A stretch of 50,423 bases of DNA, taken from the NCBI GenBank assembly GCA_964394985.1, contig CAYMZK010000002.1, positions 88,349 to 138,771 on the forward strand, given 5' to 3'. Of this stretch, positions 37,482 to 40,942 are shown piece by piece. Source of the stretch: an uncultured Candidatus Saccharibacteria bacterium (lineage in GTDB: Bacteria > Patescibacteriota > Minisyncoccia > Minisyncoccales > GWA2-38-27). The position numbers and the translations under genes are program-made. Below the pieces are notes generated by a model. It worked only from the letters and a program-made list of their open reading frames with translations. It made no database searches and had not been told where the DNA came from. Position 1 is the stretch's first letter. The number at the start of each line of letters is the position of its first letter.

Positions 37482-38984
37482 ATGAATTTGTTTAGAATGA
37501 TAATACCTGTTTTTCCGGAAGTAAATGTTTTTTCTCATCAAGCTAAAAGAACCACTGCTCTTGGTCCTCTTATGATTGCTACGGCTATCAATAAGATGCC
37601 AGAGTGGAAAGTGGAAGTGATCGATGAAAATAATTATGAAGGAGGATTGCCGAATCACCGAATATTGCAAGAAGATCGTCCAGCAACAGTAGTTGGTTTT
37701 TACTGCGGGCTGACCAGTACAATCAGGAGGGTTTGGGAGTTAGCTGAATTTTATCAAAATAATGAAGTTCTTACTATCGCTGGTGGATGGCATGCTCATT
37801 ATTGTCCTGAGGAAACTTTGGATCACAATATAGATGTTGTCGCTCATGGCGACGGAGAAGAGACAATCAGAGAATTGCTGAATGCTTTTCCGGACTTTGG
37901 GTTAATGAGTAAAGTTCCTGGGATATCTTTTCGTAGCCAGAAGAGCGGTGAAAATGTTCAACGCAATGGTCTAAAACTGAGATTAGTAGCAGACTTAAAT
38001 ACTCTGCCTAGTCCTGATTTTGGTCTTTTGAGAAAAGCGAATATTAAAGTTTATCCAATTGGTCGTATCAGGGGTTGTAGTCAGGGTTGTGAGTTTTGCA
38101 GTGTTAAGGGAAGGCCTCGTTGGGCTAGTCCGGAGCATTTATTTAATACAGTTACTTATTTAGTTGAAACACGAAAAGCAAAACGTTTTTTTATTGTTGA
38201 TGATCGCCTTGAAGGAGACCGCGAAGGAACAAAAAGATTTTTTGAATTGATAGCTAAGAAGTATGGCAACCGGCTTCGCTTTACGGTTCAGGCTCGATTA
38301 GAATTGGCAGAAGATGTAGAGCTTATGGAAGCGATGAGTAGCGCCGGAGTTCATGTTGTTTGCATTGGCGTTGAATCGCCAATTGATGATGATCTGAGGG
38401 CAATGAAAAAGGGATATACTTCGGAAAAAATGCTTGACTGGATAAAAACTATTAGGCGGTATTTTCGAACCCATTGCATGTTTATTGCGGGATATCCTCA
38501 AAAGATATCTGGAAGGCAAGTAAGCCCAGATCAAATAGTAAGATCATTTAGGGGTTTTGCTCGTCGCTCCAAAACAGACACGATTCAAGTAATGCTTCCG
38601 GGACCTGGAGTAGGAACGGGGTTGCGTAGGCGACTTGAAAAAGAAGGCAGACTCTTCCCCTTGGATGTTGTTTCTTGGGATAAGTATGATGGAGGATATG
38701 TTTGTTTTCAGCCAAAAGATATGAGTGTTGAGGAGCTTCAAAAAATACCGTTAAGAATTATGGGTAGATTTTACAGTCCGGTGATTTTTATGAGAGTTAT
38801 TTTTCGAATTTTAATGTTTCCAAGTCATTGTTTTTTAAAAGGATGGAAGCATTGGCTTAGAATGTGGAGTCGGGATTTAACATGTGCTGGAGGACACATT
38901 CTTCTTCGCCGAAGAAAAGGACGAGAAAATGCCGACGATCATGTAAGAAGAATAAAAACCTATCAACAACAGCGTCGAGAATAA
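37482..38984 (+). CDS. B12-binding-domain radical SAM protein
   Basis: IAGGWHA, GDGEE, RGCSQGCEFC, IGVES; AGGAG SD. Confidence 0.88.
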   Translation: MNLFRMIIPVFPEVNVFSHQAKRTTALGPLMIATAINKMPEWKVEVIDENNYEGGLPNHRILQEDRPATVVGFYCGLTSTIRRVWELAEFYQNNEVLTIAGGWHAHYCPEETLDHNIDVVAHGDGEETIRELLNAFPDFGLMSKVPGISFRSQKSGENVQRNGLKLRLVADLNTLPSPDFGLLRKANIKVYPIGRIRGCSQGCEFCSVKGRPRWASPEHLFNTVTYLVETRKAKRFFIVDDRLEGDREGTKRFFELIAKKYGNRLRFTVQARLELAEDVELMEAMSSAGVHVVCIGVESPIDDDLRAMKKGYTSEKMLDWIKTIRRYFRTHCMFIAGYPQKISGRQVSPDQIVRSFRGFARRSKTDTIQVMLPGPGVGTGLRRRLEKEGRLFPLDVVSWDKYDGGYVCFQPKDMSVEELQKIPLRIMGRFYSPVIFMRVIFRILMFPSHCFLKGWKHWLRMWSRDLTCAGGHILLRRRKGRENADDHVRRIKTYQQQRRE

Positions 38985-39041
38985 TCTTGACGCTTTTTTA
39001 ATGTCTAGGTTTAGATATATAATACGTCTAATTTGAAATAA

Positions 39042-39136
39042 TATGAAGGTTGAACCTTCATATATTTGTGCTCCACCAGGTGGAGCACAAGGTGGAGCAC
39101 AAATAACTGTTTCAATGGTCTTTTGGTGTATCATTT
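39042..39136. repeat. Left boundary repeat: palindrome + second palindrome + 29-bp repeat
   Basis: TATGAAGGTT-G-AACCTTCATA; TTGTGCTCCACC-A-GGTGGAGCACAA; TGTTTCAATGGTCTTTTGGTGTATCATTT (39108-39136). Confidence 0.85.
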
Positions 39137-39270
39137 AATCAAAGTGTTGCACTTCAATGTTGAATGTACCGTACAAAAAGTTGACAAAAATTTCATAATA
39201 TGCTAAAAATTGATTCATAGAAAAAACTGCTTTTTCAAAACAGAATAATAGCAAAAGGAAAGGAGTTATC

Positions 39271-39963
39271 ATGAGCAAAAACCTGGTAACCGAATTAGTG
39301 GCCCTGTTTCAGGGTCAGAAACTGGAAACCGTTCAACAGGCGGTCAAAGAAGCCACGAAGCAGGTCTGGCCTGAACTCGTGACTGGCCCGCTCAGCGAGC
39401 TGTTCGACACGCAGATGGAAACCCTGAAGGCGCGTGGTTGCCCGAAGAGCGTCATCGACGTGCTCACCAGCAAGAAGAGCGAAGTCATCGCCAAAGCAAC
39501 GGAAATCGAAACGGCCGACGGCCACATCCCGTTCGTCCCGGTAGTTCCGAGAACGGCAGTCGATCTCGGCGATCTGATGAGGATGGTTCGCAATCGTGAT
39601 CGTGAGGGGTTTAGCTATCTCTATCAGTCCGATGTAAGCAACGTCGTTGACGTGCCCAAAGAACCCTACTTCATCTACGACGTCGAGGACGGCAAAGACA
39701 TGCTCGGCAAGTCACCCGAGAAAGCGGAAGCTCTCATCAAGAAGCAGGATCGAACCTGTCTCACGGCTGATGAAGGCATCGCCCTCTGTGTTCACACCAA
39801 CGTGCTCTCCGAGCATTACGTGGACTGCACAGGTTCCCGCTGCAGGCACGCCGTCAGGGTGCCGCGTGTCTGCCTCGGCGGCGACGGGCCGAAGCTCGTC
39901 TGGGACCGTGCTGACGGCTCGGTTGACGGGTGGGGTTCCGCTTCCTGCCGTAGTCGGGCTTAG
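39271..39963 (+). CDS. Putative DGR target (variable) protein, DUF5701-like, with 3' variable region
   Basis: Visibly high GC; C-terminus GSR..VP.V.L....PKL.W......WGSASC; variable-looking positions use NNC/NNT codons; TTGACA promoter element and AAGGAG SD upstream. Confidence 0.7.
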   Translation: MSKNLVTELVALFQGQKLETVQQAVKEATKQVWPELVTGPLSELFDTQMETLKARGCPKSVIDVLTSKKSEVIAKATEIETADGHIPFVPVVPRTAVDLGDLMRMVRNRDREGFSYLYQSDVSNVVDVPKEPYFIYDVEDGKDMLGKSPEKAEALIKKQDRTCLTADEGIALCVHTNVLSEHYVDCTGSRCRHAVRVPRVCLGGDGPKLVWDRADGSVDGWGSASCRSRA

Positions 39964-40005
39964 GTCCTCGGCACTTCGGACCTTTCGGTTTCTTGTTCTT
40001 TGTTT

Positions 40006-40018
40006 CCGCCGAAGGCGG
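40006..40018 (+). promoter_or_regulatory. GC hairpin with GAA loop downstream of the VR (DGR cis-acting stem-loop candidate)
   Basis: CCGCC-GAA-GGCGG, 42 nt after the target stop codon. Confidence 0.6.
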
Positions 40019-40028
40019 TCGCTACAAA

Positions 40029-40068
40029 AAAGAGCAGATGATTAATCCTGTCTGCTCTTTCTTTTTTT
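40029..40068. terminator. Bidirectional terminator
   Basis: AAAGAGCAGA-12 nt-TCTGCTCTTT flanked by A and T tracts. Confidence 0.75.
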
Positions 40069-40246
40069 ATACTTCTCGATCATTTATCCACTCCCAGATT
40101 TTATGCCTTATTTCCTGCTCAAGCTTATTACTATCAGCATGGCTTAAAACTCCGAGATAAGAATTAAAGGATTGCATTAAAGTAAACTCATCAATTTTTC
40201 CTTTCTTGTATTCTTTTACTCTCTGCTTTAATTTTCTAAAAATCCT
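40067..40246 (-). pseudogene. C-terminal remnant of a DGR-type reverse transcriptase (absent from the ORF track)
   Basis: Manual translation: RIFRKLKQRVKEYKKGKIDEFTLMQSFNSYLGVLSHADSNKLEQEIRHKIWEWINDREV*; SYLGxLxHA thumb motif; no start codon, cut at the right boundary repeat. Confidence 0.75.
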
Positions 40247-40250
40247 TTAG

Positions 40251-40305
40251 TATGAAGGTTCAACCTTCATATATTGTGTTTCAATGGTCTTTTGGTGTAT
40301 CATTT
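40251..40305. repeat. Right boundary repeat (direct copy of the left one)
   Basis: TATGAAGGTT-C-AACCTTCATATAT plus the identical 29-mer at 40277-40305. Confidence 0.85.
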
Positions 40306-40375
40306 TGGTGTATCATATCATATGGACCAGTACATTTTATTGATTTTTAATGTAAAATTTCATATACTTAAAGTA

Positions 40376-40942
40376 ATGATCTCGTATTTAAATGGAAAAT
40401 TAATAGTAAAGACAGGTAAGTTTGTTATCGTCGATGTTAATGGAATTGGTTACAAGGTTTTTTTATCTAAAAAAACCATTAATCAAGTACCAGTTTTAGG
40501 AGAAAACATTAAATTTTTTTGTCATTTAAATGTTAAAGAAAATATAATGGATCTTTATGGGTTTTTAGACTATAAGCAATTAGAGTTTTTTGAGATAGTA
40601 GAAAGCATTAGAGGGGTTGGTCCTAAGATAGCCCTAGAAATATCTTCGCTAGGATCTTTGGATAGTTTAAAGTCTAGATTACTAGCTAAGGATGAAACAG
40701 TTTTTGAAGATATCCCTGGCATTGGGAAAAAGAAAGCCATGACTATTATTTTAGAGCTAACCGGAAAAATTAAAGATGTTAATAGGTCTTCTAAAAAGGG
40801 ATCGTTAGATGAAGCTGAAGATGCTCTTGTTAATTTGGGCTTTTCTAAGAGTCAAGCCAAAGAAGCTTTAAAGGAGATTTCAAAAGACATTTCTTCTGAA
40901 GAAAGAGTCCAAGAAGCCTTAAAAATACTAGGACGTAACTAA
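40376..40942 (+). CDS. ruvA: Holliday junction DNA-binding protein RuvA
   Basis: MISYLNG, VNGIGY, LYGF, GVGPKIA, IPGIGKKKA, ALVNLGF; start at 40376. Confidence 0.95.
   Translation: MISYLNGKLIVKTGKFVIVDVNGIGYKVFLSKKTINQVPVLGENIKFFCHLNVKENIMDLYGFLDYKQLEFFEIVESIRGVGPKIALEISSLGSLDSLKSRLLAKDETVFEDIPGIGKKKAMTIILELTGKIKDVNRSSKKGSLDEAEDALVNLGFSKSQAKEALKEISKDISSEERVQEALKILGRN

What the first reader, a model, noticed from the sequence alone, without database searches (positions are those of the whole stretch)
39271..40246. Cryptic diversity-generating retroelement: target gene, hairpin and hidden RT remnant
Seen: a high-GC gene whose last ~44 codons alternate scaffold residues with NNC/NNT codons (TGC, CAC, GTC, CGT, GGC, GGC, GAC, GTC, GAC, CGT, GAC, GGC, GTT, GAC); a CCGCC-GAA-GGCGG hairpin after the stop; and convergently an unannotated 59-aa fragment with SFNSYLGVLSHA. 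Known: DGR variable regions derive from AAC/AAT template codons, lie at the target 3' end, and are followed by GC hairpins (GNA loops in CPR); DGR RT thumbs carry SYxGxxxHA. No template repeat, avd or RT catalytic core was seen in the window. Inferred: a DGR that lost RT/TR/Avd and froze one variant, or a remote target diversified in trans.
Basis: partly seen in the sequence, partly recalled or inferred. Interest (0 to 1): 0.75.

Follow-up and report, generated by a model that had tools for sequence, protein, structure and literature searches.

The report
Decayed diversity-generating retroelement with frozen target
A small candidate-phyla-radiation bacterium carries the leftovers of a targeted-hypermutation machine: the diversified lectin-like gene is intact, but only the last 59 codons of its reverse transcriptase survive, so one variant is probably frozen.

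Summary
ORF 39271-39963 (+) is a DUF5701 protein (Pfam E 2.4e-17) whose residues ~75-230 model as a C-type-lectin fold. Its last 124 nt (39832-39955) are a true DGR variable region. In relatives, an inverted template repeat lies about 1.6-2 kb downstream, and within the repeat it differs from the variable region only at template adenines. The window's VR differs from the L005 template at 27 positions, 23 of them template adenines. The 59-codon frame 40070-40246 (-) is 80% identical to the C-terminus (aa 306-361 of 362) of the convergent DGR reverse transcriptase of those relatives. Homology stops at 40248, where a genome-wide REP-like mosaic repeat begins. The 709-kb assembly holds no RT core, no avd and no template repeat. 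The GC hairpin 40006-40018 is conserved with compensatory stem changes. A same-genus genome has the empty site (radical-SAM gene next to ruvA). RT loss recurs in this family: 20 of 32 loci with enough flank lack an RT and 2 hold stumps. DGRs of this phylum are known, so this is a new, decayed member. Unexplained: target ORFs are GC-rich islands next to AT-rich RT/avd genes. A second orphan target of another family sits on contig C7.

The parts
39039..39136 (.). Left REP-like mosaic repeat: palindrome DRa 39039-39066, palindrome 'pal' 39063-39105, unit DRb 39108-39136
   Evidence: Repeat table. Copies of each unit lie on contigs C1-C5, C7 and C10 of the genome.
39181..39210 (+). Promoter-like site TTGACA-18-AAAAAT upstream of the target gene; AGGAG-type ribosome-binding site just before the ATG
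   Evidence: Consensus scan, 10 of 12 matches; sequence. Inferred, not shown to be active.
39271..39963 (+). DGR target gene: DUF5701 protein, 230 aa, N-terminal helices plus a C-terminal C-type-lectin-like domain
   Evidence: Pfam PF18959 at 63.8 bits against a cut-off of 27.4. 112 homologues. AF2 model with pLDDT 94.4. All 50 listed structural matches read, by title, as C-type-lectin-type or FGE/EgtB-type folds, including TvpA and Mtd.
39832..39955 (+). Variable region (VR), 124 nt, the last 41 codons before RA-stop
   Evidence: Aligns to relatives' TRs. Against the L005 TR there are 27 substitutions plus one end gap, and 23 substitutions lie at TR adenines. Column entropy is high only at template-adenine codons.
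39964..40005 (+). A-poor spacer (4% A) with TYGG repeated every 8-9 nt, between the stop codon and the hairpin
   Evidence: Present in most relatives, including distant ones with 3-6 repeats at 7-9 nt spacing. Role unknown.
40006..40018 (+). GC hairpin CCGCC-GAA-GGCGG followed by TCGCTACAAA
   Evidence: A perfect hairpin lies at the same distance (39-43 nt after the stop) in 10 of the 11 closest loci, with four stem versions: CCGCC/GGCGG, TCGCC/GGCGA, CCCCGAC/GTCGGGG and CACCACC/GGTGGTG. The 11th, L002, has one mismatch.
40029..40060 (.). Terminator-like hairpin with an A run before it and a T run after it, between the convergent target gene and the RT stump
   Evidence: Terminator scan; inverted repeat I17.
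40070..40248 (-). Stump of the DGR reverse transcriptase: its last 59 codons (stop codon 40067-40069), with no start codon and no catalytic domain
   Evidence: tblastn with the L005 RT matches aa 306-361 at 80% identity, E 1e-23. DNA homology to relatives' RT genes ends at 40248. Contigs of runs X2 and X3 match 40088/40083-40248 with 0 and 1 differences and continue into RT sequence. The RVT_1 domain of the intact RT (aa 71-279 of 349) lies wholly upstream of the stump.
40248..40321 (.). Right REP-like mosaic repeat: DRa 40248-40275, DRb 40277-40305, partial DRb 40303-40321. It abuts the RT breakpoint.
   Evidence: A Logan contig of the source run bridges the junction without differences (record 7, 39929-40400).

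Best explanation
This is a decayed diversity-generating retroelement (DGR) of the lineage found in Patescibacteria/CPR. In intact relatives the cassette reads: target gene (DUF5701, C-type-lectin fold) with a C-terminal VR, an A-poor spacer and a GC hairpin; then a convergent RT gene; then avd, placed back to back with the RT; then the TR on the RT strand. There the RT copies the TR RNA with errors at adenines, and the cDNA replaces the VR. In the window's genome the cassette sits between a radical-SAM gene and ruvA, which are adjacent in a same-genus genome. Here the RT is cut to its last 59 codons exactly where a genome-wide REP-like mosaic repeat begins, and avd and TR are gone. The target gene keeps an intact frame, a promoter-like site, a ribosome-binding site, the VR scaffold and the hairpin, so it probably still makes one fixed ligand-binding variant. 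Shown: VR identity, RT stump, absence of RT/avd/TR from the assembly, the empty site in a relative, hairpin conservation. Inferred: that the protein is expressed and binds a ligand, that diversification has stopped, and that the loss involved the REP-like repeats. Whether the loss was a deletion in place or the arrival of an already truncated piece is open.
For: DUF5701 match. Hypervariable C-terminus on a fixed scaffold. Seven of 34 genome loci and further metagenome loci hold an inverted VR copy about 1.6-2 kb downstream. Within the repeat, every TR/VR mismatch I see in the printed alignments is at a TR adenine; the tallies (21-34 of 33-43) also count 12 unrelated flank bases on each side. 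The window VR against the L005 TR has 27 substitutions, 23 at TR adenines. The L005 RT matches RVT_1 at 97.5 bits and its Avd matches NF033474 at 94.6 bits against a cut-off of 80; the IGNLASQ and YADD motifs are visible. The stump is 80% identical to RT aa 306-361. Homology ends at 40248. The genome has 0 RVT_1 matches, no avd and no TR. In the source run, depth over 40073-40225 equals that of the single bridging contig, so no second RT copy at 85% likeness or more was seen. The site is empty in G002 and G007. The fold is C-type-lectin-like, with TvpA at Z 6.2 and Mtd at Z 5.6. RT decay recurs: of 32 loci with at least 2.6 kb downstream, 10 have a near-full RT, 2 a stump and 20 none. Ten of 18 other DUF5701-bearing genomes of the class have no RVT_1 match.
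Against: The genome is a metagenome-assembled genome in 16 contigs. A short RT/avd/TR contig could have been lost at assembly or binning, since VR/TR repeats break assemblies. Marker completeness of 100% does not speak to that. Only contigs were available, not raw reads, so VR heterogeneity within the population could not be measured. The source run holds a second allele of 39718-39958 (depth 4.5 against 9.9). It also differs outside the VR, so I read it as another strain, but this is not proven. The target's promoter, hairpin and scaffold are undamaged, which fits a very recent loss equally well as continued use. Expression and ligand binding are untested.
Confidence: 0.85

Rival explanations
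1. The gene is a remote target that is still diversified in trans by a DGR (RT, Avd, TR) of the same cell that is missing from the assembly or sits on a mobile element.
For: The target, the hairpin and the region next to the VR are intact. Remote targets are acknowledged in the literature, and DGR surveys anchored on the RT miss them (passages of PMC8144416). The genome has a second orphan target of another family. Three of the 5 relatives' genomes checked have an RT away from the P0113-family target locus I examined.
Against: The locus's own RT is visibly truncated at the canonical position. No RVT_1, avd or TR-like copy is present in 709 kb. No other contig of the source run covers the RT 3' end at 85% likeness or more. 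A trans system would need a TR matching this VR, and none was found.
Confidence: 0.09
2. The truncated RT junction, or the GC-rich gene itself, is an assembly or binning artefact, that is, a chimera at a repeat.
For: The junction lies at a dispersed repeat. Logan contigs of the source run break at 39046-39071, 39718-39744 and 39929-39958.
Against: An independent assembly of the source run bridges 40248 without differences (record 7, 39929-40400). The AT-rich RT stump and the flanks match CPR cassettes elsewhere. GC-rich targets inside AT-rich CPR contigs are the rule in relatives.
Confidence: 0.03
3. The C-terminal variability is ordinary fast evolution of a surface loop in a horizontally acquired DUF5701 gene, unrelated to any retroelement.
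For: None beyond the absence of TR and RT in this genome.
Against: TR/VR pairs with adenine-only mismatches within the repeat, next to RT and Avd, in at least 11 related loci. Variable columns coincide with template-adenine codons.
Confidence: 0.01

Closest known systems
Cellular DGRs of Patescibacteria/CPR ('DGR clade 2' of Roux et al. 2021, PMC8144416, passages read; Paul et al. 2017, cited there, not held and not read)
   Same: CPR host. A small target without a recognisable transmembrane segment or other domain. A C-terminal VR on a lectin-type fold. RT plus Avd plus TR in relatives. Patchy distribution.
   Different: In the window the RT is a 59-codon stump and avd and TR are absent. The Pfam name DUF5701 appears in no paper of the searchable library (0 papers). 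The surveys read here start from the RT and so do not list orphan targets.
Bordetella phage BPP-1 DGR (Mtd; target-site rules of Guo et al. 2011, PMC3240598, abstract read)
   Same: Adenine-specific TR-to-VR changes. A VR at the 3' end of a C-type-lectin-fold gene. A GC hairpin downstream whose stem structure, not sequence, is conserved. Mtd matches the model at Z 5.6.
   Different: In BPP-1 the required element lies within the 24 bp immediately after the VR. Here the hairpin lies 42 nt after the stop, behind an A-poor TYGG-repeat spacer. In this family the RT is convergent to the target and avd is antisense between TR and RT. The loop has 3 nt (GAA) in most loci.
Treponema denticola TvpA (PDB 2y3c)
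   Same: A DGR variable protein with a C-type-lectin/FGE-type fold: Z 6.2, 128 residues aligned, model residues 72-229.
   Different: 12% identity. TvpA is a lipoprotein (recalled). The window protein has no visible signal peptide.
Bdellovibrio bacteriovorus Bd2740 C-terminal domain (PDB 8oks)
   Same: The best structural match: Z 8.4, rmsd 3.0, 107 residues; Foldseek E 0.016.
   Different: 8-10% identity. Not known to me as a DGR target. A shared fold shows no shared function.
REP/BIME-type mosaic repeats with RayT transposases
   Same: The repeats that bracket the cassette and abut the RT breakpoint are short palindromes dispersed in intergenic DNA of this genome.
   Different: I did not test their link to a RayT gene here. 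Their role in the RT loss is inferred from position alone.

Membership tests
Diversity-generating retroelement (functional cassette) | Reverse transcriptase of the DGR type with a catalytic core | tested here: not met
   Only the last 59 codons remain. There are 0 RVT_1 matches in the genome. The feature is met in relatives: L005 RT matches RVT_1 at 97.5 bits.
Diversity-generating retroelement (functional cassette) | Template repeat matching the VR except at adenines | tested here: not met
   The genome holds no second copy. The VR still carries the signature against relatives' TRs, with 23 of 27 substitutions at L005 TR adenines. Relatives: adenine-only mismatches within the repeat.
Diversity-generating retroelement (functional cassette) | Accessory protein Avd | tested here: not met
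   tblastn with the L005 Avd finds nothing better than E 0.82 in the genome. Relatives: NF033474 at 94.6 bits against a cut-off of 80.
Diversity-generating retroelement (target side) | VR at the C-terminus of a C-type-lectin-fold protein, hypervariable only at template-adenine codons | tested here: met
Diversity-generating retroelement (target side) | Conserved hairpin/cruciform downstream of the VR | tested here: met
   A perfect hairpin at the same place in 10 of the 11 closest loci, with four stem versions. Its function was not tested.
Pfam DUF5701 (PF18959) | HMM score above the gathering threshold | tested here: met
   63.8 bits against 27.4; residues 74-229 on profile positions 31-203 of 206.
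C-type lectin fold | Structural similarity of the domain to solved C-type-lectin-fold proteins | tested here: met
   By my reading of the 50 titles listed by VIA-align wide, all are C-type-lectin-type or FGE/EgtB-type folds, with Z from 8.4 to 5.2. Single Z values are middling by the tool's own note, so the weight lies in the uniformity of the list.
   The intact relative's RT scores 177.5 bits against a cut-off of 300. It is flanked by Avd and TR.

The most novel reading that the evidence does not exclude
In AT-rich CPR genomes the whole target ORF of a DGR, not only its VR, is held as a GC-rich island, while the RT and avd genes of the same cassette track the host's AT-rich composition. Target body GC3 is 54-72% against RT/avd at 30-36% GC in most complete loci. 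The pattern holds in 9 of 10 complete loci examined, from two unrelated target families. This could reflect a DGR-linked process such as biased repair or gene conversion around the homing site, or selection for A/T-poor target DNA or RNA. If so, the GC offset would mark orphan targets and would fade after RT loss, as in L012, which has no offset. It could then serve as a clock for DGR death.
Probability: 0.2. Interest if true: 0.65.

Novelty: new member of a known kind. Interest (0 to 1): 0.42.

Why it matters
It ties the Pfam family of unknown function DUF5701 to a concrete role in these CPR bacteria: a C-type-lectin-fold protein diversified by a DGR. It also shows that the targets often outlive their reverse transcriptase. 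Surveys that start from the RT therefore undercount the hypervariable ligand-binding proteins of these ultra-small, probably symbiotic bacteria. The exact breakpoint, the empty site in a sister genome and intact near-identical RT sequence in other samples make this a clean case of how such a system dies. The GC-island pattern, if general, would be a new handle on DGR biology.

Tried and rejected
I first read the flanking direct repeats (39039-39136 and 40248-40321) as a cassette-specific target-site duplication or att site. I rejected that because each unit has many copies across the genome.

I considered read-through of the TAG stop into the open in-frame 25 codons (39964-40041). I dropped it because the region is open in all frames simply for lack of A, its repeat period is 7-9 nt rather than 3, and aragorn finds 42 tRNAs with no suppressor anticodon.

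I considered adenine mutagenesis spreading over the whole gene as the cause of the high GC. It does not fit: in the gene body T (18.4%) is more depleted than A (26.4%).

The joint 39090->40307 in run X1 (side 22, with 32 foreign letters between) most likely comes from another copy of the dispersed repeats, so I do not count it as an empty-site allele.

Laying contigs could not measure VR heterogeneity in the population.

Pfam and NCBIfam found nothing for the 59-aa fragment alone. Its identity came from tblastn against relatives' RTs.

Paul et al. 2017 is not held, so statements about it rest on Roux et al.'s citation and on recall.

'GC content' occurs 0 times in the texts of PMC8144416 and PMC11661182 and 0 times in PMC6602519 and PMC8632793 by the search listing. 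Wu et al. (PMC5758913, passages) discuss only the GC deviation of whole DGRs as a sign of transfer.

Full report
**What is at the site.** The window comes from a 709-kb, 34% GC genome in 16 contigs, typical of Patescibacteria/CPR. Between a B12-binding radical-SAM gene (37482-38984) and ruvA (from 40379) lies a 1.4-kb insert. It contains the ORF 39271-39963 (+), 230 aa, which is 55-65% GC and ranks 2nd of 612 ORFs in the genome by GC3 (0.709 against a median of 0.243). The ORF has a promoter-like site (TTGACA-18-AAAAAT, 39181-39210) and an AGGAG-type ribosome-binding site. After the stop come four features:
- an A-poor spacer (39964-40005);
- the hairpin CCGCC-GAA-GGCGG (40006-40018);
- a terminator-like hairpin flanked by an A run and a T run (40029-40060);
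- on the opposite strand, a 59-codon frame without a start codon (40070-40246).

**The gene is a DGR target.** The protein matches Pfam DUF5701 (63.8 bits against a cut-off of 27.4) and has 112 homologues at E <= 0.001. Those that carry a source name are called Patescibacteria group, Candidatus Spechtbacteria, Parcubacteria group or simply 'bacterium'. Alignments of 30 and 86 of them show a conserved body and a C-terminus of the form CTGSR..VP.V.L....P.L.W.....S...WGSASCRSRA. The positions between the fixed residues differ even among sequences that are 88% identical overall. In seven of 34 loci from species-representative genomes (L005, L006, L007, L015, L024, L026, L035), a 120-125-nt inverted copy of this region lies about 1.6-2 kb downstream. 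Within the repeat, every mismatch I see in the printed alignments is at an adenine of that copy. The script's tallies (21-34 of 33-43) also count 12 unrelated flank bases on each side. That copy is therefore a template repeat (TR). Its variable codons are AAC, AAT and also AAG, which explains the W, K, E and R seen at some positions. Across the 86 homologues, VR codons with A at position 1 or 2 of the L005 TR have a mean entropy of 2.56 bits (n=21). Other VR codons have 0.61 (n=20) and the gene body 1.39. Among the 12 closest sequences the values are 1.87, 0.18 and 0.38. The window's VR (39832-39955) differs from the L005 TR by 27 substitutions plus one end gap, and 23 substitutions are at TR adenines: 18 to G, 3 to T, 2 to C.

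**The fragment is the tail of the DGR reverse transcriptase.** In L005 the cassette is arranged as follows:
- target gene on the + strand;
- RT, 362 aa as listed, on the - strand and convergent to the target;
- avd on the + strand, starting back to back with the RT;
- TR on the RT strand, beyond avd.

The RT matches RVT_1 (97.5 bits) and shows IGNLASQ and YADD motifs; that these mark DGR RTs is my recall. The Avd passes NCBIfam's curated cut-off for 'diversity-generating retroelement protein Avd' (94.6 against 80). The RT stays below the group II intron cut-off (177.5 against 300). The window's 59 aa are 80% identical to RT residues 306-361 (E about 1e-23), entirely behind the RVT_1 domain. 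DNA homology to relatives' RT genes ends at 40248. Contigs of two other public runs match 40088-40248 (X2) and 40083-40248 (X3) with 0 and 1 differences and then continue with sequence that I translated by hand as ...AIILRTKTKQ, the RT residues that precede the stump. The window instead has a stop codon at 40247-40249, followed by a repeat.

**Nothing else of the DGR is in the genome.** There are 0 RVT_1 matches. tblastn with an intact relative's RT and Avd finds only the stump. BLASTN with the VR or with a relative's TR finds only the VR itself. In the likely source run, depth over 40073-40225 equals that of the single contig that also bridges the junction, so no second RT copy at 85% likeness or more was seen. 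The caveats are that this is a metagenome-assembled genome, and that only contigs could be laid, not raw reads. The source run also holds a second allele of 39718-39958 at lower depth. It differs outside the VR too, and in the listed differences it resembles the variant in run X2, so I read it as another strain.

**History.** In a same-genus genome (G002) and a same-family genome (G007), the radical-SAM gene and ruvA are separated by only about 75-80 nt holding a terminator and a promoter. None of the 2 same-genus genomes and only 4 of 60 relatives carry the gene. The cassette was therefore gained in this lineage. The closest fetched relative (L042: 84% aa, 91% nt over 39277-40028) sits between miaB/miaA and gatB and has no RT at all. 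Its homology stops right after the hairpin. The insert is bracketed by mosaic repeats (39039-39136 and 40248-40321). They are therefore not a cassette-specific duplication. Because the RT breakpoint coincides with the edge of one of them, I infer that the RT, avd and TR were lost through these repeats. Whether that was a deletion in place or the arrival of an already truncated piece is open.

**Fold and likely function.** AlphaFold2 with 86 sequences gives pLDDT 94.4 and pTM 0.87, with long N-terminal helices (residues 2-78) followed by an alpha/beta domain. By my reading of their titles, all 50 rows of the search that does not rely on Foldseek are C-type-lectin-type or FGE/EgtB-type folds. 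They include Bd2740 (Z 8.4) and the DGR variable proteins TvpA (Z 6.2, 128 residues aligned) and Mtd (Z 5.6). The Foldseek hits are weak (best E 0.016), and many of the listed ones are C-type lectin domains. I see no signal peptide or membrane segment in the sequence. This agrees with what Roux et al. state for CPR targets (PMC8144416, passages). I infer a ligand-binding protein whose binding face is the VR. The ligand is unknown.

**The hairpin.** A perfect GC hairpin lies 39-43 nt after the stop in 10 of the 11 closest loci. There are four stem versions: CCGCC/GGCGG, TCGCC/GGCGA in three loci, CCCCGAC/GTCGGGG and CACCACC/GGTGGTG. Each is followed by (C)GCTACAA. The eleventh locus, L002, has one mismatch. 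This is the pattern described for BPP-1, where stem structure matters but stem sequence does not (abstract of PMC3240598). Here, however, the hairpin lies farther from the VR.

**Decay is common.** Of 32 fetched loci with at least 2.6 kb downstream of the target (L013 and L052 are the same contig), 10 have a near-full RT, 2 have a stump (L014 aa 84-362, L044 aa 290-362) and 20 have none within the locus. L003 and L049 also keep only aa 188-360. DUF5701 was found in 19 of 201 genomes of the class, and 10 of the 18 genomes other than G000 show no RVT_1 match. Assembly loss of RT contigs may inflate these figures.

**What remains odd.**
- **GC islands.** In 8 of 9 complete DUF5701 loci the target body is 36-53% GC (GC3 35-66%), while RT and avd are 20-36% GC and the flanks 27-36%. 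L024 is the exception. The same holds in the one complete DGR examined from an unrelated target family. The window has the largest offset apart from L042, and L012 has none.
- **Spacer.** The A-poor spacer with TYGG every 7-9 nt is conserved even in distant relatives.
- **A second orphan target.** Contig C7 holds a second GC-rich gene (302 aa, no Pfam match, 1433 homologues at E <= 0.001). It has a hypervariable C-terminus, an A-poor 3' end and no TR in the genome. One of the 7 relatives' loci examined (L070) has TR, avd and RT beside it, with 18 of 18 mismatches at TR adenines.

**Verdict.** DGRs of this phylum and their small lectin-fold targets are already described, so this is a new, decayed member of a known kind. 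The added value is the DUF5701 link (0 papers hold the name), a precisely mapped breakpoint and the compositional puzzle.

Noticed in passing
L065:1826-2734 (- strand; G000 contig C7, outside the window): A second GC-rich gene (60% GC, GC3 0.768, top of 612 ORFs), 302 aa, no Pfam match, with 1433 homologues at E <= 0.001. Its C-terminus (...GDEF.....G.F..AP.F.F....V.FG...V..P....GS.SGF..Q) is hypervariable on a fixed scaffold. Its last 150 nt are 9% A. The genome has no TR for it and no RT nearby. In relative L070 the same family sits next to TR, avd and RT, with 18 of 18 TR/VR mismatches at adenines. A 'pal' repeat copy lies beside it.
   Followed up: partly
window 39271-39831; L005, L006, L007, L015, L026, L043, L045, L048, L070: Target gene bodies outside the VR are 8-24 GC points richer than the RT, avd and flanks of the same cassette (for example L006: 51.8 against 30.7, 31.1 and 36.3). 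This holds in 9 of 10 complete loci, with L024 the exception. The orphan L012 shows no offset. The cause is unknown.
   Followed up: partly
window 39964-40005 and the same place in relatives: A spacer between the stop codon and the hairpin with 2-6% A and TYGG repeated every 7-9 nt (3-6 units). It is conserved in relatives down to about 35-45% protein identity. The stop codon is TAG in 26 of 29 loci. Its role is unknown.
   Followed up: partly
L005:6995-8575 (also L006, L007, L015, L026, L043): Cassette architecture: RT and avd start back to back on opposite strands with no intergenic gap, and the TR lies beyond avd on the RT strand. A TR-RT transcript would therefore carry antisense avd. In L070 the same TR-antisense avd-RT module is co-directional with its target.
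   Followed up: no
window 39039-39136 and 40248-40321; many sites on G000 contigs C1-C5, C7, C10: Three short units co-occur in varying order in intergenic DNA: the palindrome ATATGAAGGTTSAACCTTCATAT, the palindrome TGTGCTCCACCAGGTGGAGCACA and the unit TGTTTCAATGGTCTTTTGGTGTATCAT. Together they form a REP/BIME-like mosaic family.
   Followed up: partly
window 38995-39022 and 40344-40371: A 28-nt stretch just after the radical-SAM stop is 71% identical to the stretch just upstream of ruvA (repeat D4). It may be a leftover of the original ruvA promoter region split by the insertion, or it may be chance.
   Followed up: no
L026:7007-8087: The RT of this otherwise complete DGR gives two overlapping tblastn pieces (aa 1-205 and 185-360). 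This suggests a frameshift or a small duplication. G213 and G111 also show split or half RTs next to DUF5701 genes.
   Followed up: no
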